Shown here one piece after another: positions 2,112 to 54,663 of a stretch of DNA of 54,663 nt. The first letter of the stretch is position 1. Each line of letters begins with the position of its first letter. A program made the translations under genes and the position numbers. Under the pieces are notes generated by a model, which did no database searches, was not told the origin of the DNA, and saw only the letters and a list, made by a program, of their open reading frames with translations. Source of the DNA: a virus (taxonomy: Duplodnaviria; Caudoviricetes); IMG/VR virus record IMGVR_UViG_3300048792_000052, positions 1-54,663 of that record. One strand, written 5' to 3'.

Positions 2112-2133
2112 TGGCGGAAGCTAGTGGGAGTCG
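2112..2133. repeat. Left att core: duplicated 3' end of tRNA-Sec
   Basis: TGGCGGAAGCTAGTGGGAGTCG is identical to 54342-54363. Confidence 0.95.
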
Positions 2134-43432: not shown

Positions 43433-43602
43433 GCGCGCCCTCTCAACTCAATCTCTTTGAACCGAAGGAGGAGAAGTACAAATACGGAACGCATTACTAC
43501 CGGTGCGGTGGGTGGTTCATCACCAAAGACAGTTTTGTGTACATCCAGCTCAACGGCGAACTTCGTCCGAAACCGCGCAAGAAGAAACGGAGGCGACGAT
43601 GA
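43429..43602 (+). CDS. Hypothetical protein
   Basis: MSAPSQLNLF...; ATGA couplings on both sides. Confidence 0.5.
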   Translation: MSAPSQLNLFEPKEEKYKYGTHYYRCGGWFITKDSFVYIQLNGELRPKPRKKKRRRR

Positions 43603-44491
43603 GAATCCAGTTTGCGGAAATCCGCAATATCAAAGTGGAGGATGTGCTTGCCCACTACGGAGTGGAAACGCGCAAGCGGTCCACTACGGAACTGGTAGCC
43701 AACTGCCCGTTCCCGTCCCATAAGGAAACGGAACATAAAAACGGGAATCCTACTCTCTGCATTTCGCTCGAACTGAACCGCTGGTTCTGCCAGAGTTCGA
43801 AGTGCCGAGAAATATCCAACAAGCCCAAAGGCGGGGACTGCATTGATGTCGTCGCCATGATGGAGAATCTGACTCCGCTCGATGCCGCGAAAAAGCTGGC
43901 GGAGTTGTTCGGCGGAAATCCGCAATCTCGACCAAACACTGTAAGAGCGGACACCCCTCACCCCCTTCAAAGCCGAATCCTCCCCTCGCCTTCACGCTGA
44001 AACTTGACCCCGATCACCCAGCCATCAGAGAAAGGGGAATCAGTCTGGAAACGGCGATGGAGTTCGGAGTGGGGTTTTTCTCTGGCAAGGGAAGCATGGC
44101 TAATAGAGTGTGCTTCCCCATCAGAGAAAACGGCGCGATCGTGGCTTACGCGGGCCGGACCATTTTGCCCGTTTCGGATGAGAACCCTAAATGGAAGATT
44201 CCTGCCGGTCTTCAGCGCACGTTTGTCTACGGGTTAGAAAAGTGCGATCCGGCAAAACCACTCATCCTATGCGAGTCGCCGTGGGGATGTCTATGGCTAT
44301 TTCAGCATGGACGGCAAGCCGCGGCGCTCGTCGCTTGCAGTATGACATCCGAACAAGAAAAGCGGCTCGAGCCGTTCAAGGTTATCCAGCTCGCTTTTGA
44401 CAATGACCAATCGGGCCGCGATGCTACCGCAAAGATAGTTGAACGTTTGCGCGGGAAGCACACGGTACTGAAATCGTACCTGAAGGAATAG
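43599..44491 (+). pseudogene. DnaG-like primase (CHC2 zinc finger plus TOPRIM) split by a frameshift near 43925-43975
   Basis: Frame 1: CPFPSH...WFC...GGDCID; -1 frame: NPPLAFTLKLDPDHP..RERGI..ET..EFGVG...YAGR...CES...AFDND. Confidence 0.75.
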
Positions 44492-45483: not shown

Positions 45484-46012
45484 ATGGTAAGGCCGACCGC
45501 ATTCCTGCCGCTCGCGTTTCTCGCGCTTGCGTCAGCGGGCGCACAGGAGAAAAACGATAAGTTCGCGGTGTTCGTCGTGGGCATGGGCGACGCCGTCCCC
45601 GTGGCCCAGTCGCTCATAAAGCAGCTGAATGCGTCAAAGCCGTTCGCGGCGGTCGGCAAGAATGACGAGAGCAAGGTGGTGGTGCTCGTGACATGCATGC
45701 CGCGCAAGCAGGCGGAGCCATTCGCGTGCATGTACGTATCGCAGTTCAACGGGCCGACATTCAAAGACGTTCATGGGCGGCGGTCTGTTCTTCAGCACGG
45801 GCGCGGAATTGGTGGCGAGCAACTTTTTGGCGTCGATCGCGCAGGATGTCGTCGAGCGGTACAGCGACACGAATCTGGACAATCTGAGGCAGGGACTCGA
45901 AAGCTGCCTGCTGATGACCGACTCAAAGTGCAACGTCCCCGACCCGCTCCAGAAGGAATTCGACGCGAAGCAGCTCACGCTGGGGCAGTACCTTTTGAAA
46001 AAACACAAGTAA
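45484..46012 (+). pseudogene. Secreted hypothetical protein interrupted by a 1-nt frameshift at ~45763-45765
   Basis: Signal peptide MVRPTAFLPLAFLALASAGA; removing one A from TTCAAAGACG joins it to ORF 45773-46012 (FKTFMGGGLFF...). Confidence 0.6.
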
Positions 46013-46064
46013 AACATGAAGCCCAACCCAGCTTGTGACTGGGTGGGGGTTTTCTTTGTTCCGT

Positions 46065-46241
46065 CTATTGATTTTCTTTCAACGACACTTTTGCGCCAGA
46101 CATGAGTTGCGGAAGTTTGGCGCGGCACTTCGGACAATGATGCATTTCCGCTGCCCCACCAGATGGCCCCAGCGTGCCGGGATTTTCAACCATCAAATCA
46201 GCATCGCACTTTTGGCATTTGAGATCATGGAAAGTAGGCAT
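46065..46241 (-). CDS. Small zinc-ribbon protein (58 aa)
   Basis: Own translation: MPTFHDLKCQKCDADLMVE...HCPKCRAKLPQLMSGAKVSLKENQ. Confidence 0.55.
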   Translation of the reverse strand: MPTFHDLKCQKCDADLMVENPGTLGPSGGAAEMHHCPKCRAKLPQLMSGAKVSLKENQ

Positions 46242-46303
46242 ATTCTGATATTATCAAATGAAAATCCCCGCTCCAGTCACAAGCTGAAGCGGGGACCGTG
46301 TTT

Positions 46304-47701
46304 TTAGAGCTTCGTAACGTTCTTCTTCATCTCCTTGTCGTCACTGTGCGTCCAGTAGGTAGGCAGGAGAAGCTCGAAAATCATGCGCAGCTTCCCGTCA
46401 TTGCCATCCACCTCTGCTTTCTCGCGGAGTGGCGTTTTGTAGTCCCGGCTCGTATACCCGTCGTGCTTCTTCGCGAGGGCCTTCAACCCGTAGCGTTTTA
46501 GAAGGGGCATGGTCTTGTTCGAACTCGCATCGTGAAACATCAAATCGAATAGTGCGTCGAGATGCTTCTGCGAGAGCGGCCATTTCACTTTCACCAGCCC
46601 ATCGCACACTGCCTTGTCGAAGGCGAGCCGCCTGGCCTGCTCTTTCTCGCGCTCTTTCTTGCGCTTCTCTTTTTCTTTCTCGCTCGGACGGTACTCGGTA
46701 TGCTGTTCCCCATGCTCGGAGCAATCGCCGCTGGCGCAAATCCAAATCGTCGTTCCCGTGTCCGGGCCGTCAACTACAATGCCCTGCACCGCGCCTTCGC
46801 AATACTTTTTTGTGTTCGAAGGCAGCCCCTCGTAATTACTCTCGGAAAGCACCGTCATTCCGGCGAACGTCTTGCGCTCCGGCGTGCCGTACTGCTTCAC
46901 GATGGGAACCAAGCCGCTCTCATCGGTCTTGATGCGATGCGTTATGTAGGCATCCATCTTGCGCTTCCAGCATTTGAGGTCGGTGCATTGGCCGTCCTTC
47001 ACCGAACCGAACAAGGCTTCACGTACTGGTGGACACTCCTTGCACACGCCGACGATTTTGGCGATGTCGGAATTTTTCACCCACGGCTGGAACGCCAACG
47101 GGCGGTAGAAGGTCTTGTCAATCCACTTCTTCAATTCGGGAACCGTGACGCCGCGCCACGTTTGCCCCATGTATTTCAACGCCGCGAGCTGGTCACGTTC
47201 GGCGAGCTTGGCGACGAGATACGCCGCACCGTCCGTCATTTCCCCTTTTCGGTATTCCTTGGCTGCTGCCGGACAAAGGTTGGTCAGGAATAATCTCTGC
47301 CGAACGTAATCCTCCGGCTTCCCGACTTTCACCGATATGTCTTTGACGGTCCGGTCCCCGTCCTCGATGAGCTGGCGGTACGCCTCGCCTTCTTCAAGCG
47401 GATGCACGTCCTCGCGCTGGAGGTTCTCGACGATCTGCGCTTCCCGCGCTTCATCGTCCGTCATGTCGACGACTTGCGCCGGGATCTCTTTCAGCCCGGC
47501 TTCCTTCGCCGCCCGGAGCCGACGATTGCCGGCGATGATCTCGTATCCTTTACCACTCTTGCGGGCGAGAACCGGCACGAGGATACCTTTTTCACTGACA
47601 CTCGCCACTAACTCACTAAACGATTTGCCCGCGAAGTCTGTGCCCCGCGGGTTGGTCTCCGATTCCCGGCATTCGGAAACCTTGAGATTCTGCAATTGCA
47701 T
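46304..47701 (-). CDS. parB: ParB/Spo0J-family protein with HTH and Cys-rich C-terminal extension (no parA partner seen)
   Basis: NPR, GILVPVLAR, YEIIAGNRRLRAA (GxRR), ENLQREDVHPLEE, HTH TVKDISVKVGKPEDYVRQRL, CKECP...CTDLKCW. Confidence 0.88.
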   Translation of the reverse strand: MQLQNLKVSECRESETNPRGTDFAGKSFSELVASVSEKGILVPVLARKSGKGYEIIAGNRRLRAAKEAGLKEIPAQVVDMTDDEAREAQIVENLQREDVHPLEEGEAYRQLIEDGDRTVKDISVKVGKPEDYVRQRLFLTNLCPAAAKEYRKGEMTDGAAYLVAKLAERDQLAALKYMGQTWRGVTVPELKKWIDKTFYRPLAFQPWVKNSDIAKIVGVCKECPPVREALFGSVKDGQCTDLKCWKRKMDAYITHRIKTDESGLVPIVKQYGTPERKTFAGMTVLSESNYEGLPSNTKKYCEGAVQGIVVDGPDTGTTIWICASGDCSEHGEQHTEYRPSEKEKEKRKKEREKEQARRLAFDKAVCDGLVKVKWPLSQKHLDALFDLMFHDASSNKTMPLLKRYGLKALAKKHDGYTSRDYKTPLREKAEVDGNDGKLRMIFELLLPTYWTHSDDKEMKKNVTKL

Positions 47702-47813
47702 TGTTGTAATTCATTGGTTTATATTTCGACCTGCATTAAGTATGACCGACCCTAGTAAACTTTCAACCCCGGCTGTCCACAAGGAAAAACAACCGGGATT
47801 GCGGAAATCCGCA

Positions 47814-47990
47814 CTACACTACCTCGTTGCCGTTCTCATCAATCTCGGTAACGTCGGTGACATTTATTTCGAAGTCGCCTGACGCTTCGGGGTGGGTCAC
47901 GGCGATGTGTTCCGCCTCGGTGGAGTTTTCGGCGCTCACAATCGTATCCCAGCACCTATCCTCGGTCATGTGAACTCGATATAGTCTCAT
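47814..47990 (-). CDS. Small acidic protein (58 aa)
   Basis: Own translation: MRLYRVHMTEDRCWDTIVSAENSTEAEHIA...; AGGTCG leader motif. Confidence 0.55.
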   Translation of the reverse strand: MRLYRVHMTEDRCWDTIVSAENSTEAEHIAVTHPEASGDFEINVTDVTEIDENGNEVV

Positions 47991-48268
47991 TGGTTTGTTT
48001 ATTTAGGTTTCGACCTTTGCGCCGTTCGCTTGACGGCAGTCATAGGGAAGCTGCCAGGTGCCCTGAAAAGTCAAGGTGGATCGTCTAAAAGGCCGCGCGA
48101 CGTTTCGGCGGCGGCAAAGAGTCGAAGTACCTTTACTTTTTAGGGTGGCTGCTACCCTTAACGGTCCGTAAAGCGAACTACGTGGCACGCGAGCAAACCC
48201 GAAGGGCAGTTATCGAGGCGCGTCTTCGCGCCACTGATTGCGGTAAAATCCGCTGATTAGAGGCGCAT

Positions 48269-48610
48269 ATGAAATTCTGGAAAACAATCGGAACTGTGCT
48301 CGATAATATTTGGGCACCGGCAGGAGCTTTGGTTTTCGACCCTGACGGTGAACGGGGAAAGAACGATAACTACCTCCCAGAAAAGAGGCATGTGGGGTTC
48401 TGGTTCTTCGTGGCGGTCATCGCCCTGGTGGGATCGTGGATATTTAAGTGGTCCGACAAATACGCCGATGTGGCGGGCGTCGCGTTCATGGTCTGCCGAT
48501 TCGCCCTCGTGGAACGCCGGGTCGCTGATTTGACCATGAGTTTAAAAACTTTAGAATCCTCGCTTCAACGTCCTTCCGTTTCGTCCCCCACCGCTCCAAG
48601 GACGCCTTGA
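48269..48610 (+). CDS. Moron: two-TM membrane protein
   Basis: GAGG SD, two hydrophobic segments; 3' end overlaps the convergent ATPase gene. Confidence 0.5.
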   Translation: MKFWKTIGTVLDNIWAPAGALVFDPDGERGKNDNYLPEKRHVGFWFFVAVIALVGSWIFKWSDKYADVAGVAFMVCRFALVERRVADLTMSLKTLESSLQRPSVSSPTAPRTP

Positions 48611-49769
48611 TGAGCTTCGTGGCGTTGGCTTCGTCCCCGCGCTTTTGTACGGGCGGGTTAGCTTCGAAATGGGATACCAGGGGTTCATTGCGTGCGTTGA
48701 ACGAGCGCGCGTAGAAGTGGTAGCGTGGCAGGTCGGTAATCTGATACGCAACGTCCTGTCCCCAATTGGTAGCCATCAGTTTCGCATCCTCTCCTGAAGC
48801 GTTGAAGATGATCTGCGTCGGGCAGTTGGCGAGCAGGTCTTTCGCAAATGGGAGCTGGTACATTCCCTGCGTACCGCTCACCAGGCTTACCCCATACTTC
48901 CTGCCTTCAGCCAACAAGGTTCCGAACCGTCCGCCGTGCGTGAAGTTGTGCGTCTCGTCCACCACCACCATGAAATGCGGTCTGGATTTCTGCCGCTCGC
49001 GCTTCAGGGCTGCGATGGAAACCATAGAGATGATGAGCGAGCCGAGGATTTGGGCAATTTCTTCACCGAGACGGCCTTTGGATAATCTGGCGACGACTAT
49101 CCGGCGCCCGTTCATCACTTCCAGAAAGTCCAATGAGTCCGGCTGGCCGATGATGGGCAGGATGGCCGGCCGAAGTAATTTGGCAACCTTGTTCAAGGGC
49201 GGAGAGAACTTGGACATCTGCTCCGAGTCGCGCAGTTTCTCGTCGTACTGCTCGCGGAACAGCTTGAGGAAGGGGTTGGCGGATTTCCGCAATACCGATT
49301 CTCGGAACTTGTCGTCCGCCATGAAACGGAACACATGGACTGGCGTAGGCCGGGGAAACGCCTCGCAAACCGCGTCGATGGCATTGATAATAACGCGGGC
49401 CGATTCATCGCCCCAAGCGGAACCGGCAAGAGATTTAAGCGTAGTAAAAAGTGATTCCTTGCCGAGTTCCAGTTCTTCGCCCGTTTTGAAGAAAAGAGGA
49501 TTGAACGGAGGCACGCGGGGAGCGTCGGGGTCTATCCAAATAAAATCCCTGGCGCGGGATTTGGGGATTAGTTTGGCTATCGCATCCGCCGCATCGCCGT
49601 GCGGGTCGATAAACAATCCCCCGTTGCCCTGGCGGATGTGTTCGACAAAAAGATTGATGAGCAAGCTGGACTTGCCCACGCCTGACATGCCCTCAATGTT
49701 TATGTGGCGCGCGGTGTCGATCGCGAGCGGTCTGTTGCTGATAAAGTCATTTCCGATGATTGCGTTCAT
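48486..49769 (-). CDS. TraD/TrwB-like (type IV coupling / FtsK-HerA) ATPase
   Basis: RHINIEGMSGVGKS, IDPHGD, FNPL, VVVDETHNF, EGRKYGVSL...TQ..YQL, N..T.I.F. Confidence 0.85.
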   Translation of the reverse strand: MNAIIGNDFISNRPLAIDTARHINIEGMSGVGKSSLLINLFVEHIRQGNGGLFIDPHGDAADAIAKLIPKSRARDFIWIDPDAPRVPPFNPLFFKTGEELELGKESLFTTLKSLAGSAWGDESARVIINAIDAVCEAFPRPTPVHVFRFMADDKFRESVLRKSANPFLKLFREQYDEKLRDSEQMSKFSPPLNKVAKLLRPAILPIIGQPDSLDFLEVMNGRRIVVARLSKGRLGEEIAQILGSLIISMVSIAALKRERQKSRPHFMVVVDETHNFTHGGRFGTLLAEGRKYGVSLVSGTQGMYQLPFAKDLLANCPTQIIFNASGEDAKLMATNWGQDVAYQITDLPRYHFYARSFNARNEPLVSHFEANPPVQKRGDEANATKLIKASLERWGTKRKDVEARILKFLNSWSNQRPGVPRGRIGRP

Positions 49770-49773
49770 GCTC

Positions 49774-49852
49774 TGGAAGCTGGGCGGTAGGATTCGAACC
49801 TACATCTCGCGGACAACTCCGCGTGCATCTACCGTTCTGCTACGCACAGCTC
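49774..49852 (-). ncRNA. tRNA-like element (non-canonical anticodon arm)
   Basis: Minus strand has D arm GCA..GG..TGC, T arm GTAGG-TTCGAAT-CCTAC and a 3' CCA; anticodon loop is only 6 nt (AGTTGT). Confidence 0.65.
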
Positions 49853-49977
49853 TCAAAGTACGAAACATTAGCCCGCGTCCCAGCCCCCATCTCGGCTCAC
49901 AGCCGGAGAAGACTGGGAGGCAGGGAATGTGCGCGACATGTCGCGCCCCGCGAGTTTGGGTCGCGATTATTAGAAGT

Positions 49978-50730
49978 TTAACTCTCTGGCCTCAAAATGC
50001 TATACGCGCGATCGCGGAAGTTCTTGGGCGTCCACCAGATTTTGCCGGTGGGGTTTTTAGAAAACACATCGACGCTTGTGAACCAAAGCCTTGGAGTGTT
50101 TAAGGTGTCTTCAATCGACGCGAGCAGCATTTCAACCCTGCGCGTTGTTTGGACCACAATGTAGGTTCGCGGGAAGTGCTTGGCGTAGTCGGCCAGTTTC
50201 TCGCGGCTTACAGGATTCATGCGCTCGTATTCCATAGGACACCAGCCCGTACCGTCCTTGAGGTCGAAAAAGAGGTCGGGGACTTCGCCGTCAAAATCTT
50301 TCTGCAAGTCAGTGCGCCACCTGCGGAACTCGGCGCCGTCGAAATGCTTCGCGAGCAGAAGCTGGCAATCAGTGATGCCTTTTTCGTGCGGGAGCTGCAT
50401 GGGGGACTTCTTTTGGACGTACCACTTCCGGCTCGCCGCCCCGCGCTCAATCGCCTTCAAAGCTCCCTGCTCGGTAAGGAAATAGAGGAACTCCGAAAAG
50501 TCATTCTGCTGCACGCGTCCCAGGTATCCGTTCTCGCACAACCTGCGGAGGCGGACGTTGATGTAATCGAACTTGCATCCGAGCGCGGACTGCATTTGCT
50601 TCGTCGTCAGGAAAACGTACTTCGCGAACGCTTCATAGATCCGGTCGTCAGCCAGCATCGAATAGACGCGCCGGACGTTTCTTGCTTCGGCTTGGGGTAT
50701 CACGGGTGCTCCTTTCAAAGCTGTTTGCAT
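49978..50730 (-). CDS. Replic_Relax (MOBC-like) relaxase: wHTH plus PD-(D/E)XK
   Basis: FLTTKQ...RLRRL..NGYL...YFLT..G, LPHE..I, PDLFF, MEYER, KL..Y. Confidence 0.75.
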   Translation of the reverse strand: MQTALKGAPVIPQAEARNVRRVYSMLADDRIYEAFAKYVFLTTKQMQSALGCKFDYINVRLRRLCENGYLGRVQQNDFSEFLYFLTEQGALKAIERGAASRKWYVQKKSPMQLPHEKGITDCQLLLAKHFDGAEFRRWRTDLQKDFDGEVPDLFFDLKDGTGWCPMEYERMNPVSREKLADYAKHFPRTYIVVQTTRRVEMLLASIEDTLNTPRLWFTSVDVFSKNPTGKIWWTPKNFRDRAYSILRPES

Positions 50731-52075
50731 GGGGTGGGAAAGAGTTAGGAAGGTTGTTTCTAAATAGTAAAGTTTCTGCGCTGGAATACAAGTAGGGCCG
50801 GAGCGGGGGAACTTTGTAGTGGTACGTCCGGTCCGGCAGGACGATCATGCACTGGTACTTCGGAAGGTTGAGTTTCTCCGCGAACTTGGCACGCTTTTCT
50901 TCTGGGGAATAATCCTCCCAGCCGGTCTGCACTTCCACCGATTGGGGCCGGAGCCGGTCGTGGGTGGTTATCTGGTCCCCGTCCGGGTATTCGGTAACGC
51001 TCGTGCCAATGTCGTCTTCGTATTCCGTGATATGGCTGATGCGCGGCTGCCGGTGCCAGTCCTCCGCCAGCTCGCGCGAGAAGGCATCCCCCGCCAACTT
51101 ATTGCGGATTTCCGCACTCAAGCCGCCGAAGATTACGCGGATGCCGGCGTTCACGGATAAAGATTCTTTCGTCCGTTCATCCATCTGGCCGGCGAAGTGG
51201 TGAATGATGGTGGCGCGGATGCCGGAAGCTAGGACCAGGTCAAGCATGGAACCCAAATCAGGGGAGCTGTATTCCTGCGCTTCATCGGCGTACAAGAATG
51301 TGGTATGCGGGTCGTTCGCATGCTCTATTCCAACAAGGGTGATGTCCGATAGGAGAAGGCCGAGGCAGATGCGGGCAGTTTCGCGTGGCAAGTGTGCGCT
51401 CGGGGTTGCGTTCACAAAAAGGCTGACGCCATTGCGAAAACACTCTCCGACTTCCAAGGGATCGGGCAGGGACATAACTTGCCGGAGCATGGAACTTGTA
51501 ATGAAAGGCCGGAGCCGGTTTCGGAGGGGCTTTACTTCGAACTTCCAGTCCGATTTATCAGTGTAGGAAATGCGGCGCATTTCTTCTCGGAACTGTTCGT
51601 CAGGCATGTCTTTCGAATAGTCGAGCCAGAGTTTTCGTTTGTCGTACTCCACCATGTCGAGCGCTTCGGTAAGAGGCATCTTCGAAACTGCGAGATGGGC
51701 AAAGAATGCTTCGGCCACTCTCGCGTAATTTTGCAATTCGGAGATGGGCTGGTTGGAGACGACTTTCAAAATCACTTCGGCAAGATGGTTGGCGTGCGTA
51801 GCGAGATCGCGTCCCGTGGGCAACGCAAAAGGATTCCAGGCAATCAGCCGATCGGGGTTCGATAGATTCAAGAACTTGGCTGGGTAGTTTGGATTGGCTT
51901 CGGCGACGAAGGCGACAAGTTTTTCGTAACCCTGCGATTTGTATTCCAGCCACATCATGGGATTGCCTGCCAAGATGTGGATGTGGCCATGACCGACTGC
52001 GAGCGTCGTCTTGCCGTACCGTGCGCGGCCGACAATTTCACAATGAGTTTTATAGGGCGCCCAACGGGGATGCAT
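50648..52075 (-). CDS. Second, more divergent TraD/TrwB-like ATPase
   Basis: HCEIVGRARYGKTT Walker A, WNPF, FLYADEAQEY Walker B; GAAAGGA SD places the start at 52075. Confidence 0.72.
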   Translation of the reverse strand: MHPRWAPYKTHCEIVGRARYGKTTLAVGHGHIHILAGNPMMWLEYKSQGYEKLVAFVAEANPNYPAKFLNLSNPDRLIAWNPFALPTGRDLATHANHLAEVILKVVSNQPISELQNYARVAEAFFAHLAVSKMPLTEALDMVEYDKRKLWLDYSKDMPDEQFREEMRRISYTDKSDWKFEVKPLRNRLRPFITSSMLRQVMSLPDPLEVGECFRNGVSLFVNATPSAHLPRETARICLGLLLSDITLVGIEHANDPHTTFLYADEAQEYSSPDLGSMLDLVLASGIRATIIHHFAGQMDERTKESLSVNAGIRVIFGGLSAEIRNKLAGDAFSRELAEDWHRQPRISHITEYEDDIGTSVTEYPDGDQITTHDRLRPQSVEVQTGWEDYSPEEKRAKFAEKLNLPKYQCMIVLPDRTYHYKVPPLRPYLYSSAETLLFRNNLPNSFPPHANSFERSTRDTPSRSKKRPARLFDAG

Positions 52076-52136
52076 AGGTTCCTTTCCGATAGAGATTAAG
52101 GCACGCCGAGTGAAGCGATAGCGGCCTGCGATAGTG

Positions 52137-52211
52137 CCTATCGGGGTATCCTGACCGTGCCCTGCTAAGGGATGCGAATAGTAAGAAGCAAGGGAAGGAT
52201 ACCCCGATAGG
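52137..52211. repeat. Perfect 16-bp inverted repeat (oriT candidate)
   Basis: CCTATCGGGGTATCCT (52137-52152) / AGGATACCCCGATAGG (52196-52211). Confidence 0.7.
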
Positions 52212-52310
52212 AAAAGGCACGAGGCGAACAGGCAACCCGCGTGATAACAAGGGTTTGGCGGCATGGTCGCGAATTTTTCTTATCGAGCGATAGCATACTG
52301 CTAGTAAGGT

Positions 52311-52643
52311 CTAATGAACCTTGTCGGGATGGTGAAACTCACGAGCGACTTGTCCTTCGAGGTACTTATCGAAGTGTTTTTGCAAGTCCTGATCGCCAAC
52401 CTTGATTGCGGGGAGTTGGGTGTCTTTGAAAGAAGCGATGGCGTGGACAACCTCGATCTTTTTCTGGATGTCCCGCGCGGCGATTTCCGCTTCCGTGGGT
52501 TCGCGCGGCGGTGGAAGTGGTGGAGGTGGTGGTGGAAGGGGTGGCTCGGGTGGTGGAGCTGGTGGAGGCGGGTCGGGCTGCAAGACCTTGTAGAGGCTCA
52601 AGCAGCCCAGAGCAACCAGCAGAACTAAGAGAAGGCCGCTCAT
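52311..52643 (-). CDS. Membrane-anchored proline-rich protein
   Basis: N-terminal TM, poly-Pro linker, helical C-terminus. Confidence 0.65.
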   Translation of the reverse strand: MSGLLLVLLVALGCLSLYKVLQPDPPPPAPPPEPPLPPPPPPLPPPREPTEAEIAARDIQKKIEVVHAIASFKDTQLPAIKVGDQDLQKHFDKYLEGQVAREFHHPDKVH

Positions 52644-52855
52644 GGGCGGCCTCCGTTCTTTTTCTTGGTGATGAGTTGTTTCAGTTCGTCGGCCCGCTGG
52701 CGGGGAACTTTGCGGGTTTCGTTCGTTTCGCCGGTGCCGATGTTCAGGTAACCGCCGTACTTAATCAAAAGTCGGCGCCCTGAGTGGTAGGACGCGCCAA
52801 TGTAGGCGGCGAACTCTTTTACGGTGAGGGTCTCCTCATAAACGATACTTTCCAT
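52640..52855 (-). CDS. Excisionase-like HTH protein
   Basis: TLTVKEFAAYIGASY...R.VP; AGGAG SD; downstream of the integrase. Confidence 0.65.
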   Translation of the reverse strand: MESIVYEETLTVKEFAAYIGASYHSGRRLLIKYGGYLNIGTGETNETRKVPRQRADELKQLITKKKNGGRP

Positions 52856-53206
52856 GTCGCAATCTCCTGTTTGGGATTTCGCGACAGATTTCTCCCGGCC
52901 TATTAGCCGCGAGCGTTACCCAATTGGGCCACGCTTGAACCGTCCAATTGAACTAGCTTAGATAGTTTCTGTCCGTTGCCGTGAAAGAACGCTTCCCTGA
53001 GAGCCAGCGCGACTAAAGCAGGCCGAAAGCCTGACGCGCCTAAACTTAGCTTGTCATCTTGCGTCCACCCGTATCTTTGCCCTATTAGGCAATATTGAAA
53101 CATAACGAAGTCAGCAACGTTTGCCTATATGTCTTATAGCATGGACGTGAATTGGTTTCTAGGGTTTCCGGAAAGTAATCTTGATCTGGATTTGCAGTTC
53201 GAGTTT

Positions 53207-54268
53207 TTATGAAAATTGCTTCACGCGGACGAGCTGGGGCTTCCAGGTGGAACGGATAAGTTTTGTGAGCTTCTTTTGCCGCGCCCGGTTCCATCCAGCG
53301 TAAACTGTCGCAACGAGTTGTGGGCTGTTGCCGAGGATCATAGCGACTTCGGTAACAGGAACGCCTTGCTCCAAGAGGGATGCAGCCAGGGTGTGGCGAT
53401 AGCGATGGGGATGCGCGCCTTCCACCTTCGCACGGGTAAAGAGCTTGGAAAGGTCGTCCCTGAAATTATTGACGGCGGTTTGCTTCTTCCCTTCCCCGGT
53501 CGCGAAGAAGAAGTCATTGCTCTTGTTCGGACATTTTTCGAGGGCTTCAACGACGTGTTCAGGGAGTGGCAGCCAGACGGGCGCACCGGTTTTTGCGGTG
53601 TATAAAAAAAGGTTTCCGTCTTTCAGCTTGCGGCGCTGGAGCATCACGGCGTCGGCGATTCGTAAACCGCTATGGCGCAACAAGAGAACCATTGCGTAAT
53701 GCCTCGGATGCTTCGATGCTTCGGCTTCGATAGCGAGAAGTTCCTCCGGCTCGAAAGGGGAAACTTGTTTCGGCGGAACTTTCGGCATGGCAAGATCAAG
53801 CGCGGGATTCTTTTTCACCCACTCCTGCCGGATGGCGTGCTTCCAAAAACTCCGCAGCCGTTCGATGTACTTTGCGCTCGTGAGCGCGGACCACGTCCAC
53901 TCGTTCCTGAACTTTTCGATGAGGGGTGTGTTGATGGCGTTGAGGGGAAGATCGGTGAACGCGGCGAGCTTGTCCAAGATTATTTCAAACTTCCGAACGG
54001 TCGCCGATGAGACGTTTTTCTTCTTGAGATGTTCAAGAAAAAGTCTCTTGGCCTCGGCTACCGTGACGGAGGGCTCGGCTGGCGCTTCGCCATCCTCGAT
54101 CTGGCGCTTTAAGACTTCCCCACGCGTCCAGCTCCGCGTTTTCAAACTGCGGCGGATGTACTGGCCCTCAACGGTTCCCTCGCAATGTACCGCGCACCGG
54201 CACTTTCTGAAGTAGCGGTCCTCCTTGTGGGGGCATTTGGATTTGTGCCGTCGCCAGAGGATGAGCAT
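53207..54268 (-). CDS. int: Tyrosine integrase
   Basis: LLRHSGLRIAD, KTG, HPHRYRHT, LGNS, Y; adjacent to the tRNA att site. Confidence 0.93.
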   Translation of the reverse strand: MLILWRRHKSKCPHKEDRYFRKCRCAVHCEGTVEGQYIRRSLKTRSWTRGEVLKRQIEDGEAPAEPSVTVAEAKRLFLEHLKKKNVSSATVRKFEIILDKLAAFTDLPLNAINTPLIEKFRNEWTWSALTSAKYIERLRSFWKHAIRQEWVKKNPALDLAMPKVPPKQVSPFEPEELLAIEAEASKHPRHYAMVLLLRHSGLRIADAVMLQRRKLKDGNLFLYTAKTGAPVWLPLPEHVVEALEKCPNKSNDFFFATGEGKKQTAVNNFRDDLSKLFTRAKVEGAHPHRYRHTLAASLLEQGVPVTEVAMILGNSPQLVATVYAGWNRARQKKLTKLIRSTWKPQLVRVKQFS

Positions 54269-54341
54269 GTCCGATTATCGCACACTCTACAGCGCACCTT
54301 TTTGCTGATATCCGCAAACTGCTGAAACTAAACAAGATAGA

Positions 54342-54363
54342 TGGCGGAAGCTAGTGGGAGTCG
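54342..54363. repeat. Right att core (within the tRNA-Sec 3' end)
   Basis: Identical to 2112-2133. Confidence 0.95.
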
Positions 54364-54436
54364 AACCCACCTGCGACACGGAGTGCCCCACGCTGGTTTT
54401 GAAGACCAGGCCCAGCACCGGCCAAGACTAGCTTCC
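54342..54436 (-). tRNA. selC: tRNA-Sec (UCA)
   Basis: 95 nt, GGAAGCTA/TAGCTTCC 8-bp acceptor stem, CTTCAAA anticodon loop, long variable arm, GGTTCGACTCC, GCCA end. Confidence 0.93.
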
Positions 54437-54462
54437 TCGGTGATTCTAGCACCTGCAAGTCT

Positions 54463-54663
54463 TCAGCCTGTCGCCGATGCTCCCGCTTGTGTTCCCGCCA
54501 GGCCCAAGTCCGCGGCGTGCTGTTTCATGGCTTCGATGCAGAATTCGATGTGCTGATCCAAATCCACGTTCAATCCGGCTGCGCCATTCACAATGTCATC
54601 GCGGCTCACTGACCGCGCGAATGCTTTGTCCTTCAGCTTTTTCCGCACTGATTTGGTTTCCAC
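54463..54663 (-). CDS. HD/HDIG-domain protein, 3' part
   Basis: SVRKKLKDKAFARSVSRDDI..GA..L...L..HI.F.IEAM, the C-terminus typical of this family. Confidence 0.7.
   Translation of the reverse strand: METKSVRKKLKDKAFARSVSRDDIVNGAAGLNVDLDQHIEFCIEAMKQHAADLGLAGTQAGASATG

What the first reader, a model, noticed from the sequence alone, without database searches (positions are those of the whole stretch)
48486..54268. Tailed prophage carrying a conjugative-mobilisation-like module (two coupling ATPases plus a MOBC-like relaxase)
Seen: on one strand inside the att sites are integrase, xis-like HTH, TM/Pro-rich protein, TraD-like ATPase 1, Replic_Relax protein, a tRNA-like RNA and TraD-like ATPase 2. 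No VirB4 or mating-pair genes are visible. Known: MOBC relaxases (CloDF13 MobC, pAD1 TraX) have a PD-(D/E)XK fold, and CloDF13 brings its own coupling protein while borrowing a helper's mating pore. Inference: a phage/integrative-mobilisable hybrid that could spread both as virions and by conjugal mobilisation. Palindrome sites inside both ATPase genes (49279, 51104) and in the capsid region suggest one co-evolved unit rather than a chance tandem insertion.
Basis: partly seen in the sequence, partly recalled or inferred. Interest (0 to 1): 0.78.

Follow-up and report, generated by a model that had tools for sequence, protein, structure and literature searches.

The report
Conjugation-like DNA module in tailed prophage
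A tailed prophage from peat-soil bacteria, like its relatives, carries beside its integrase a conserved gene set resembling the DNA-nicking and DNA-pumping parts of plasmid conjugation, which hints but does not show that these phages also move or copy their DNA in a plasmid-like way.

Summary
A 52.2-kb tailed prophage sits between 22-nt repeats at tRNA-Sec, with no third copy. On the minus strand it carries integrase, a small unconfirmed HTH-like ORF, a TM/Pro-rich protein, ATPase 1, a Replic_Relax protein, a tRNA-like gene and ATPase 2.

- **ATPase 2** passes the Pfam cut-offs for TrwB_AAD_bind and TraG-D_C.
- **ATPase 1** has no Pfam hit, but its model matches the coupling proteins TrwB, Cag-beta and IcmO best.
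- **The Replic_Relax protein** is a winged helix plus a nuclease-like domain with invariant H115, D152 and E167.

New here:
- The ATPase–Replic_Relax–ATPase triad is present in all 11 related loci that extend far enough.
- A membrane protein lies just upstream in 9 of 11 loci.
- A covarying hairpin with CTATCG repeats lies in the leader of ATPase 1.
- Neither ATPase has a membrane anchor, and the window has no VirB4.

So this is one co-evolved unit, homologous to MOBC relaxase plus coupling-protein modules. Conjugal mobilisation is the leading reading (about 0.4). Replication initiation (about 0.3) and defence or exclusion (about 0.12) are not excluded.

The scan noted the same architecture on another genome (e1-6316225).

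The parts
2112..2133 (+). Left att copy, a 22-nt direct repeat.
   Evidence: an exact copy of 54342-54363. No third copy is found with up to 3 mismatches.
54342..54363 (+). Right att copy, which is the 3' end of tRNA-Sec (gene at 54342/54346-54436, minus strand).
   Evidence: Contigs of runs X6, X7, X8 and X18 diverge from the window at 54341-54344.
53207..54268 (-). Tyrosine integrase.
   Evidence: PF00589 at 67.7 bits. phrog_1 at 1.2e-39. It is 95.4% identical to the integrase of L108.
52640..52855 (-). Small ORF of 71 aa, a possible excisionase-like HTH protein.
   Evidence: Assigned from sequence and position only. There is no HMM hit. An RNA-library contig of run X18 covers 52567-52806 without differences.
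52311..52643 (-). Membrane-anchored, proline-rich protein of 110 aa, a candidate membrane partner of ATPase 1.
   Evidence: TM helix at residues 1-23. Sequence. A TM protein occupies the same position in 9 of 11 loci. There is a homologue in L107.
52076..52310 (-). Conserved non-coding leader. It holds a hairpin (arms 52137-52160 and 52188-52211) and a cluster of CTATCG repeats. It is a candidate cis site: oriT, ori or an RNA leader.
   Evidence: Inverted repeats. Folding z-score of -3.07. Six of the window's 35 CTATCG copies lie in 52087-52293. The hairpin is kept in L107, L108 and L009 with 9 pairs changed on both sides, reached by 0 of 500 shuffles.
50648..52075 (-). ATPase 1, a soluble P-loop ATPase of 475 aa counted from M64. 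It has the TrwB (coupling-protein) fold.
   Evidence: Profile against PDB: IcmO 6.7e-7, TrwB 2.1e-5. AF2 model pLDDT 84.5. Foldseek: TrwB 2.1e-11, Cag-beta 1.6e-10, IcmO 6.8e-8, HerA 1e-6, VirB4 1.4e-5. No TM helix.
49978..50658 (-). Replic_Relax (MOBC-family) protein: an N-terminal winged helix plus a C-terminal nuclease-like domain.
49779..49849 (-). tRNA-like gene between the Replic_Relax gene and ATPase 2.
   Evidence: ARAGORN calls it tRNA-???. RF00005 scores 42.1 bits against a gathering score of 29. ARAGORN finds no tRNA at this position in 12 related loci.
48486..49769 (-). ATPase 2, a soluble coupling-protein-like ATPase of 427 aa and the most conserved gene of the module.
   Evidence: PF10412 31.3 bits and PF12696 24.7 bits. 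phrog_5156 5.8e-41. mad8 4.7e-17. Atlas clusters score 0.98, and TM 0.91 by structure. It is 65-75% identical across 8 relatives.
46304..47701 (-). ParB-like protein, co-directional with and downstream of the module.
   Evidence: PF02195 78.9 bits and PF17762 38.4 bits. PRTRC ParB 2.6e-34, below its cut-off.
49277..49292 (.). Copy of the phage-wide 16-nt palindrome, inside ATPase 2.
51102..51117 (.). Copy of the phage-wide 16-nt palindrome, inside ATPase 1.

Best explanation
The stretch is an integral early operon of a lineage of temperate tailed phages. The closest named relatives are in Acidobacteria genome bins. The operon is homologous to the DNA-processing half of a conjugative or mobilisable element.

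Proposed mechanism; every step is inferred, none is shown:
1. After excision by the integrase, the Replic_Relax protein binds the phage's own DNA through its winged helix. The binding site is the conserved hairpin and CTATCG-repeat region in the leader of ATPase 1.
2. Its PD-(D/E)XK-type domain nicks the DNA there, as MOBC relaxases do.
3. The two soluble TrwB-fold ATPases are held at the membrane by the small TM protein encoded just upstream. Together these would amount to a coupling protein split into two genes.
4. The ATPases pump the processed strand into the mating pore of a co-resident conjugative element.

The phage would then spread both as virions and by mobilisation. I hold the first tier at about 0.8: the module is one unit with the phage, is homologous to MOBC and coupling proteins, and acts on its own cis site. 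I hold the full mobilisation mechanism at about 0.4.
For: Homology:
- PF13814 above its cut-off. Passages of PMC5357655 equate PF13814 with CONJscan MobC, and describe streptococcal IMEs with a compact VirD4 + MobC + integrase layout.
- Passages of PMC5714925 and PMC8152469 state that MOBC relaxases are PD-(D/E)XK-like.
- H115, D152 and E167 are invariant, and P151, K178 and Y182 nearly so, in 102 family members. They lie on an alpha-beta-beta-beta-alpha-beta core in a model of pLDDT 93.5.
- ATPase 1 matches the coupling proteins TrwB, Cag-beta and IcmO 4-6 orders of magnitude better than HerA, DndH or VirB4. Its profile hits IcmO and TrwB in PDB.
- ATPase 2 passes the TrwB_AAD_bind and TraG-D_C cut-offs. 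It also sits in Atlas clusters of 'type IV secretory system conjugative DNA transfer' proteins.

The gene pair recurs outside these phages:
- An ATPase lies next to a Replic_Relax gene in an Embleya linear plasmid. Its neighbours there are PrgI, a second ATPase and NlpC/P60.
- The same pairing occurs in a Dongia integrative element with an integrase, in a Trueperaceae contig and in Microcystis phage Mwe-JY31.

Integration with the phage:
- The triad is present in 11 of 11 related loci that extend far enough.
- A primase zinc-finger gene lies downstream in 12 of 12 loci.
- There is no internal att copy.

Cis site: a hairpin upstream of ATPase 1 is kept in 4 of 4 type-A loci. It shows 96.2% paired cells and 9 pairs changed on both sides, a value reached by 0 of 500 shuffles. 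Controls with the partner slid by 1-3 columns give 30-42% paired. Six CTATCG copies lie within 207 nt.

Membrane link: a TM protein lies directly upstream of ATPase 1 in 9 of 11 loci, often with overlapping start and stop codons.

Possible helpers: the Acidobacteria bin that holds related prophage L014 has three VirB4-like frames of 851-871 aa on three contigs.
Against: - No nicking, transfer or helper has been shown. The window's own host genome is not held.
- Neither ATPase has the N-terminal membrane domain of canonical coupling proteins. There are two ATPases, and no role is known for the second.
- By sequence, the best matches of ATPase 2 are the defence model mad8 (4.7e-17) and, in PDB, TdpA (9.4e-4), ahead of IcmO and TrwB.
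- The nearest relatives of ATPase 2 outside the phage group are chromosomal genes of Patescibacteria. In the one such locus annotated (L019) the neighbours are housekeeping-type genes, with no relaxase and no type IV secretion gene.
- PF13814 proteins also sit in Stx-phage replication units (passages of PMC8951638). They also occur in virulent Bacillus phages, where mobilisation makes little sense (passages of PMC9658697).
- The hairpin lies inside a transcribed intercistronic leader, and its inner stem covaries too. It could therefore be an RNA element and not a DNA origin.
- The profile of this protein family found nothing in the CloDF13 record. No direct link to a tested MOBC relaxase was therefore made.
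- Only 1 of 2 Acidobacteria bins with a related prophage shows VirB4.
Confidence: 0.4

Rival explanations
1. Replication module. The Replic_Relax protein is the phage's replication initiator. It binds and nicks, or melts, the hairpin and repeat region as an origin. The ring ATPases act as loader or translocase for rolling-circle or theta replication of the excised genome, and the ParB-like protein partitions the copies.
For: - The Pfam family is named for plasmid replication as well as relaxation. The table in PMC3424549 (passages) lists both functions.
- Stx phages Eru6 and Eru13 carry HTH + PF13814 proteins in the replication unit, in the place of O/P (passages of PMC8951638).
- Passages of PMC5714925 note that relaxases, MOBC included, can be multifunctional initiators.
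- Among the 13 distinct early ORFs tested across two calls, only a split DnaG-like primase, an exonuclease and endonuclease VII/HNH proteins were recognised. No initiator, helicase or polymerase was found.
- The module lies next to the divergently oriented primase genes in 12 of 12 loci.
- The ATPase 1 + Replic_Relax cassette and its hairpin change together between phages whose integrase is 95% identical. Origin-initiator pairs behave this way.
Against: - I know of no coupling-protein-fold ATPase that serves in replication (from my own knowledge, not searched).
- A membrane protein coupled to ATPase 1 in 9 of 11 loci is not expected for a replisome.
- Not all early ORFs were scanned, so an initiator or helicase may have been missed.
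- The same ATPase + Replic_Relax pair sits in a plasmid cluster with PrgI-family and NlpC/P60 genes.
Confidence: 0.3
2. Defence or superinfection-exclusion module. An ATPase-nuclease system is carried at the integrase end of the prophage. It senses or degrades incoming foreign DNA at the membrane and so protects the lysogen.
For: - ATPase 2 hits the PADLOC model mad8 at 4.7e-17 over residues 17-355. MAD7-MAD8 is described as an ATPase-nuclease module required for MADS defence (passages of PMC13662399).
- Weaker hits go to HerA and DndH and to TdpA.
- The position beside the integrase is a common place for prophage cargo (from my own knowledge).
- ATPase 1 and the Replic_Relax protein diverge fast, at 15-32% identity between phages whose ATPase 2 is 65-75% identical.
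- In the Dongia element the module lies next to a restriction-modification pair.
Against: - Only one of the eight MADS genes is matched. ATPase 1, the Replic_Relax protein and the small ORFs hit no PADLOC model.
- The same architecture is present in 11 of 11 related loci. A defence hotspot would be expected to hold different systems in different relatives.
- A conserved, covarying cis hairpin in the module's own leader points to action on its own DNA or RNA.
- ATPase 1 matches coupling proteins better than HerA by about 5 orders of magnitude.
Confidence: 0.12
3. Two elements in tandem. A small integrative mobilisable element (integrase to ATPase 2) landed next to, or in front of, an unrelated prophage at the same tRNA. 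The association would then be accidental.
For: - The 8-kb stretch holding integrase, TM protein, ATPases, Replic_Relax and ParB looks like an IME backbone.
- The Dongia locus has integrase + two ATPases + Replic_Relax, with no phage gene recognised among the 5 of its ORFs that I scanned.
Against: - There is no third att copy with up to 3 mismatches.
- The only integrase found in the window lies in this stretch, although not every ORF was scanned.
- The palindrome family spans both parts.
- Related phages keep the module next to the same primase, exonuclease and head or tail genes.
- G+C content is uniform at 0.53-0.56.
- No joint inside 46000-54663 appears in 4 runs. These are contigs only, so this is weak.
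Confidence: 0.04

Closest known systems
MOBC relaxase plus own coupling protein of mobilisable or conjugative plasmids (CloDF13 MobC/MobB; pAD1 TraX/TraW)
   Same: Both have a PF13814-family protein with a PD-(D/E)XK-type domain, encoded next to a TrwB/TraG-like ATPase. Both lack their own VirB4 or mating pore, as CloDF13 does (passages of PMC11389934 say CloDF13 encodes a coupling protein; PMC5714925 and PMC8152469 cover the MOBC fold). A large inverted repeat with short direct repeats lies beside the genes. I recall this being described for pAD1 oriT2, but Francia & Clewell 2002 was not seen.
   Different: Here the module sits inside a complete tailed prophage. There are two ATPases, both without a membrane domain, and a separate TM protein lies upstream. 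No sequence-level link to CloDF13 was obtained: the family profile gave no hit in that record. Nicking has not been tested.
Streptococcal IME class 8 (VirD4 coupling protein + MobC relaxase + integrase), PMC5357655
   Same: A compact integrase plus PF13814 relaxase plus VirD4-type ATPase on an integrated element that lacks a type IV secretion system (passages of the paper).
   Different: Those IMEs use a serine integrase, have one canonical coupling protein and carry no virion genes. Here the integrase is a tyrosine recombinase, the gene order is integrase first, and a 40-kb morphogenesis and lysis set shares the same att sites.
Replic_Relax and FtsK/TraD-like genes annotated in cultured phages (Bacillus phages Novomoskovsk and Bolokhovo, PMC9658697; phage G gp155/gp156; Microcystis phage Mwe-JY31)
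   Same: Phage genomes with a PF13814-family gene and a FtsK/TraD-superfamily ATPase. In Mwe-JY31 the ATPase is directly followed by a Replic_Relax-profile protein. Phage G gp156 is a relative of ATPase 2.
   Different: Those genes were annotated only, and read as remnants of plasmid maintenance (passages of PMC9658697). The lineage-wide triad, the TM partner and the covarying hairpin were not described in the passages that I read.
Stx-phage replication units Eru6 and Eru13 (HTH_36 + PF13814 protein), PMC8951638
   Same: A PF13814-containing HTH protein in the early region of a temperate phage.
   Different: It sits between cI and Q, in the place of O/P, and the passages read mention no coupling-type ATPases. 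RR itself found no match in the phage collection by tblastn.
ATPase-nuclease defence modules (MADS MAD7-MAD8; TdpAB; HerA-nuclease systems)
   Same: A FtsK/HerA-superfamily ATPase is paired with a nuclease. ATPase 2 hits mad8 at 4.7e-17 and TdpA at 9.4e-4.
   Different: No other MADS gene is present. The nuclease here is PF13814 with a winged helix. The module carries its own conserved cis hairpin, and it is a fixed part of the phage lineage.

Membership tests
MOBC relaxase / Replic_Relax (PF13814) | Match to the family model above the curated cut-off. | tested here: met
   36.1 bits against a cut-off of 25.3. Six of 7 positional homologues tested also pass. The family profile finds 2550 representatives at E <= 0.001.
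MOBC relaxase / Replic_Relax (PF13814) | N-terminal winged-helix DNA-binding domain. | tested here: met
MOBC relaxase / Replic_Relax (PF13814) | C-terminal PD-(D/E)XK-type nuclease core with conserved acidic residues. | tested here: inconclusive
   H115, D152 and E167 are invariant, and P151, K178 and Y182 nearly so, in 102 sequences. The secondary-structure order fits the core. The fold searches were filled by the winged helix, and only weak rows for SdaI (8.4e-3) and FokI (2e-2) appeared. The fold assignment rests on PMC3424549 (passages).
MOBC relaxase / Replic_Relax (PF13814) | Site-specific nicking at an oriT. | not testable with these tools
   A candidate site exists, the covarying hairpin with CTATCG repeats. 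Its function is unknown.
Type IV coupling protein (VirD4/TraD/TrwB) | P-loop nucleotide-binding domain with an all-alpha insertion (TrwB fold). | tested here: met
   ATPase 1: Foldseek finds TrwB at 2.1e-11 (TMq 0.53-0.56), Cag-beta at 1.6e-10 and IcmO at 6.8e-8, ahead of HerA and VirB4. ATPase 2: PF10412 and PF12696 are above their cut-offs, and Atlas structure clusters give TM 0.90-0.91. ATPase 2 itself was not folded here.
Type IV coupling protein (VirD4/TraD/TrwB) | N-terminal transmembrane domain. | tested here: not met
   A hydropathy scan finds no N-terminal TM segment in any of 14 ATPase 1 or 9 ATPase 2 sequences. A separate TM protein is encoded just upstream in 9 of 11 loci.
Type IV coupling protein (VirD4/TraD/TrwB) | Works with a type IV secretion system (VirB4 and others). 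| tested here: not met
   There is no PF03135 match in the window. VirB4-like frames exist elsewhere in 1 of 2 Acidobacteria bins that carry a related prophage.
Integrative mobilisable element (IME) | Integrase + relaxase (with or without a coupling protein) + oriT, with no mating pore of its own. | tested here: inconclusive
   The gene content fits. The oriT is unproven, and the element also encodes a full virion. No definition of an IME that I know covers such an element.
Temperate tailed phage (Caudoviricetes prophage) | Terminase, portal, major head and tail genes between att repeats, with an integrase. | tested here: met
   The record itself is a virus record.
MADS defence system | Eight-gene mad1-mad8 operon with methyltransferase, kinase and nucleases. 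| tested here: not met
   Only a mad8-like hit for ATPase 2. The 6 other proteins tested had no MADS hit.

The most novel reading that the evidence does not exclude
A whole lineage of temperate tailed phages of peat-soil Acidobacteria is dual-mode. After excision, its own MOBC-type nickase and a split coupling protein (a TM subunit plus two soluble TrwB-fold ATPases) feed the 52-kb phage genome into the mating pore of a co-resident conjugative element. The phage would then spread by conjugation as well as in virions, and its host range would no longer be limited to cells that carry the phage receptor.
Probability: 0.3. Interest if true: 0.8.

Novelty: new variant of a known kind. Interest (0 to 1): 0.55.

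Why it matters
Phages and conjugative elements are usually treated as separate routes of gene transfer. If a tailed phage lineage keeps a working relaxase and coupling-protein module as part of its core genome, its host range would no longer be set by receptor recognition alone. Prophages could then reach new hosts through mating pores, which bears on how related prophages come to sit in distant bacteria.

If the module instead initiates replication, it would be, to my knowledge, the first case of coupling-protein-fold ATPases serving a phage replicon. Either result gives a function to a large set of unstudied genes. These are short soluble TrwB_AAD_bind/DUF87 ATPases and PF13814 proteins, found in phages, actinomycete plasmids and Patescibacteria.

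The covarying hairpin gives a concrete DNA substrate for a nicking assay.

Tried and rejected
- **Direct link to a tested MOBC relaxase.** The CloDF13 record (L094) has a fragmentary gene table, and the profile of 102 family members found nothing in its ORFs (best E 0.45). Francia et al. 2013 (PMC3746933) is not held. The MOBC motifs and the pAD1 oriT2 layout are therefore from recall or from reference lists only.
- **tblastn of the Replic_Relax protein.** No match against plasmids or phages.
- **Related-locus scans.** ATPase 1 alone found nothing in viral contigs. The 9-row alignment only returned contigs already held.
- **Fold of the nuclease domain.** Foldseek and the wide VIA search were filled by the winged helix.
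- **Complex prediction, ATPase 1 with the Replic_Relax protein.** No verdict: score 0.00 against a mark of 0.32, and the controls were not run. This counts neither for nor against binding.
- **Sequencing runs.**
  - Four runs laid as contigs show no joint inside 46000-54663. Contigs cannot show absence.
  - The RNA-library run X18 has exact contigs only over 52567-52806 and 53359-53505, and none over the ATPases. DNA may be present in that library, so this shows neither transcription nor silence.
- **Simple promoter and terminator scans.** Counts were no higher than in shuffles.
- **VirB4-like reading of ATPase 1.** Rejected, because VirB4 chains score about 6 orders of magnitude worse than TrwB.
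- **tRNA-like gene as a conserved part of the module.** Rejected, because ARAGORN finds no tRNA at that position in 12 related loci.
- **The 16-nt palindrome as a module-specific site.** Rejected, because it is phage-wide and absent from relatives.
- **Supplementary files of papers** were not opened. Those of PMC5357655 and PMC3424549 may hold alignments that bear on the MOBC motifs.

Full report
**What is there.** The window is a 54,663-base virus record. A 22-nt direct repeat occurs at 2112-2133 and 54342-54363. With up to 3 mismatches there are only these two copies, against 0.00 expected. The right copy is the 3' end of a tRNA-Sec gene (Rfam 71.5 bits; ARAGORN).

Between the repeats, 8 of 10 large ORFs tested hit PHROG structural families. 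These include terminase large subunit 3e-65, portal 8.7e-105, major head 4.8e-23 and tape measure 4.9e-25. The element is therefore a 52.2-kb tailed prophage. In peat and permafrost runs X6, X7, X8 and X18, contigs that match the tRNA side diverge from the window at 54341-54344. This fits that boundary.

**The module.** Reading the minus strand from the tRNA inward, the genes are:
- Integrase 53207-54268, PF00589 at 67.7 bits.
- A 71-aa ORF, 52640-52855, that looks like an excisionase-type HTH. It has no HMM hit.
- A 110-aa protein, 52311-52643, with one N-terminal TM helix and a proline run.
- ATPase 1, 50648-52264.
- A PF13814 Replic_Relax protein, 49978-50730, at 36.1 bits against a cut-off of 25.3.
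- A tRNA-like gene, 49779-49849.
- ATPase 2, 48486-49769, with PF10412 at 31.3 bits and PF12696 at 24.7 bits, both above their cut-offs.
- A ParB-like protein, 46304-47701.

PF03135 (VirB4) finds nothing in the window. Two starts need adjusting.
- ATPase 1 most likely begins at M64 (52075), behind GGAAAGGA. That is the 475-aa form in the protein collection.
- The Replic_Relax gene most likely begins at M25 (50658), the form the Atlas holds.

The two genes then overlap by 11 nt.

**What the proteins are.**

*ATPase 1.*
- It has Walker A and B motifs but no hit in Pfam, PHROGs, NCBIfam or PADLOC.
- It is 21% identical to ATPase 2 (E 8e-7).
- A profile of 14 relatives hits IcmO (6.7e-7) and TrwB (2.1e-5) in PDB.
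- An AlphaFold model of pLDDT 84.5 matches TrwB (2.1e-11, TMq 0.53-0.56), Cag-beta (1.6e-10) and IcmO (6.8e-8). These come ahead of HerA (1e-6), DndH-C (2e-6) and VirB4 (1.4e-5).

*ATPase 2.*
- It lies in Atlas clusters named for conjugative DNA transfer (score 0.98; TM 0.91 by structure). Some of these clusters are mostly viral.
- By sequence, its best single hits are PHROG 5156 (5.8e-41, function unknown) and the defence model mad8 (4.7e-17).
- In PDB its profile hits TdpA first (9.4e-4), then IcmO and HerA.

Neither ATPase has an N-terminal TM segment.

*The Replic_Relax protein.*
- The model has pLDDT 93.5.
- The C-terminal half has the helix-strand order of a PD-(D/E)XK core.
- In 102 family members H115, D152 and E167 are invariant, and P151, K178 and Y182 nearly so.
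- The fold searches did not resolve this half. The nuclease assignment therefore rests on PMC3424549 (passages) and on the residue pattern.

**Is it one unit with the phage?** Yes, by four lines of evidence.
1. There is no internal att copy.
2. The 16-nt palindrome TTGCGGAAATCCGCAA gives 30 strand-matches at about 18 sites, against 1.08 expected. All lie inside the prophage, and two lie inside the ATPase genes.
3. Relatives keep the module.
   - Nine IMG/VR contigs, two Acidobacteria bins and three metagenome contigs carry ATPase 2 or ATPase 1 relatives.
   - In all 11 loci that extend far enough, the order ATPase 1, Replic_Relax, ATPase 2 is kept. These are the window, L002, L003, L005, L006, L007, L009, L010, L014, L108 and L109.
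   - Six of 7 middle genes tested pass PF13814.
   - L004, L008, L015 and L107 are cut by contig ends and were not counted.
4. A primase zinc-finger gene follows on the opposite strand in 12 of 12 loci. Head, tail and exonuclease homologues lie nearby in L007 and L009.

ATPase 2 is 65-75% identical across the group. ATPase 1 and the Replic_Relax protein are only 15-32% identical between types. L108 has an integrase 95.4% identical to the window's but an ATPase 1 only 40% identical. The ATPase 1 + Replic_Relax cassette is therefore exchanged as a specificity unit.

**New features.**

*A membrane partner.* A TM protein is encoded directly upstream of ATPase 1 in 9 of 11 loci, and in several loci its stop codon overlaps the ATPase 1 start. 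The exceptions are L003, which is Pro-rich but has no TM segment, and L009. Several of these proteins have two TM helices or a proline-rich tail. This looks like the membrane domain of a coupling protein encoded as a separate gene.

*A structured leader.* The 235-nt non-coding leader of ATPase 1 holds a large inverted repeat: arms 52137-52160 and 52188-52211, 88% complementary. As single-stranded DNA it folds with a z-score of -3.07. Six of the window's 35 CTATCG copies lie within 207 nt of this leader. The hairpin stands at the same place in all 4 type-A loci (window, L107, L108, L009).

On their alignment, 96.2% of cells pair and 9 of 20 pairs change on both sides. None of 500 shuffles reaches this, and slid controls pair at 30-42%. 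There are two caveats. Only four sequences were available, and the structure was derived from those same sequences. No Rfam family matches the leader.

**Where else the gene pair occurs.**
- **Embleya linear plasmid:** a coupling-type ATPase next to a replication-relaxation gene. The neighbours are a PrgI-family protein, a second ATPase and an NlpC/P60 hydrolase.
- **Dongia contig:** integrase, two ATPases and Replic_Relax, followed by a restriction-modification pair.
- **Trueperaceae contig**.
- **Microcystis phage Mwe-JY31**.

In contrast, the many Patescibacteria relatives of ATPase 2 (about 30% identity; 575 of 599 candidate stretches confirmed) are single, longer proteins. In the one such locus I annotated (L019) the neighbours are housekeeping-type genes. 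My Replic_Relax profile found no hit in the Patescibacteria loci.

**Reading.** With about 0.8 confidence, this is a relaxosome-like DNA-processing and translocation module. It belongs to the phage and acts on its own leader site. What it achieves is open.

*Conjugal mobilisation (about 0.4).* This fits the homologies, the pairing known from CloDF13, pAD1 and streptococcal IME class 8 (passages of PMC5357655 and PMC11389934), the membrane partner and the lack of a pore. One related host bin has three VirB4-like frames elsewhere.

*Replication initiation (about 0.3).*
- The family is also linked to plasmid replication (PMC3424549).
- PF13814 proteins sit in Stx-phage replication units (PMC8951638).
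- No initiator or helicase was recognised among the 13 distinct early ORFs tested.
- The initiator-plus-site cassette is swapped between phages.

*Defence or exclusion (about 0.12).* This rests mainly on the mad8 hit (PMC13662399). It fits poorly with a fixed architecture and a module-owned cis element.

*A chance tandem of two elements (about 0.04).* The evidence above argues against this.

**Novelty.** Replic_Relax and TraD/FtsK-like genes have been annotated in phages before (PMC9658697; phage G). Viral clusters of such ATPases exist. My six literature searches found no paper describing a tailed phage lineage with a conserved MOBC/coupling-protein triad, a split membrane partner and a covarying leader hairpin. 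Subscription journals and supplements were not searched. The scan itself noted the same architecture on another genome (e1-6316225). I rate it a new variant of a known kind, of moderate to high interest. The key claim is testable by a nicking assay and a mating assay.

Noticed in passing
window 49779-49849 (-): The tRNA-like gene between the Replic_Relax gene and ATPase 2 scores 42.1 bits against RF00005 (gathering score 29) when the 2.7-kb region is scanned with permissive filters. The whole-window gathering scan missed it. ARAGORN gives no anticodon and finds no tRNA at this position in 12 related loci.
   Followed up: partly
window 4191-54317 (about 18 sites): The 16-nt palindrome TTGCGGAAATCCGCAA is spread through the prophage, with 30 strand-matches against 1.08 expected. 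The related phages fetched do not have it. It may be an operator, or a parS-like site for this phage's own ParB-like protein (46304-47701).
   Followed up: partly
L016-L093 (for example L019:9926-11908): Patescibacteria and some DPANN or Methanoperedens genomes carry a single 600-850-aa soluble TrwB-like ATPase, about 30% identical to ATPase 2. In L019, the one locus annotated, it has a C-terminal treble-clef zinc finger and lies among genes for LytR, S41 protease, HtrA and ClpB, with no relaxase and no type IV secretion gene.
   Followed up: partly
window 54381-54663 compared with 46000-54380: In peat runs X6 and X7, summed contig depth over the tRNA-Sec flank is about 6-7 times that over the prophage. 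Several contigs diverge at 54341-54344. The same tRNA site is therefore empty, or holds other inserts, in related community members.
   Followed up: no
L108:97-1146 and L108:2321-3793: The integrase is 95.4% identical to the window's, while ATPase 1 is only 40% identical. This shows mosaic exchange of the ATPase 1 + Replic_Relax + hairpin cassette behind a nearly identical integrase.
   Followed up: partly
window 43503-44491 (+): The DnaG-type primase appears split into two adjacent genes, a CHC2 zinc-ribbon protein (43503-44000) and a primase-core protein (44057-44491). Homologues follow ATPase 2 on the opposite strand in 12 of 12 loci.
   Followed up: no
window 49890-49960 (-): A perfect 16-nt palindrome, GCGCGACATGTCGCGC, lies just downstream of the Replic_Relax stop codon and upstream of the tRNA-like gene. 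It was seen by eye in the sequence and was not tested further.
   Followed up: no
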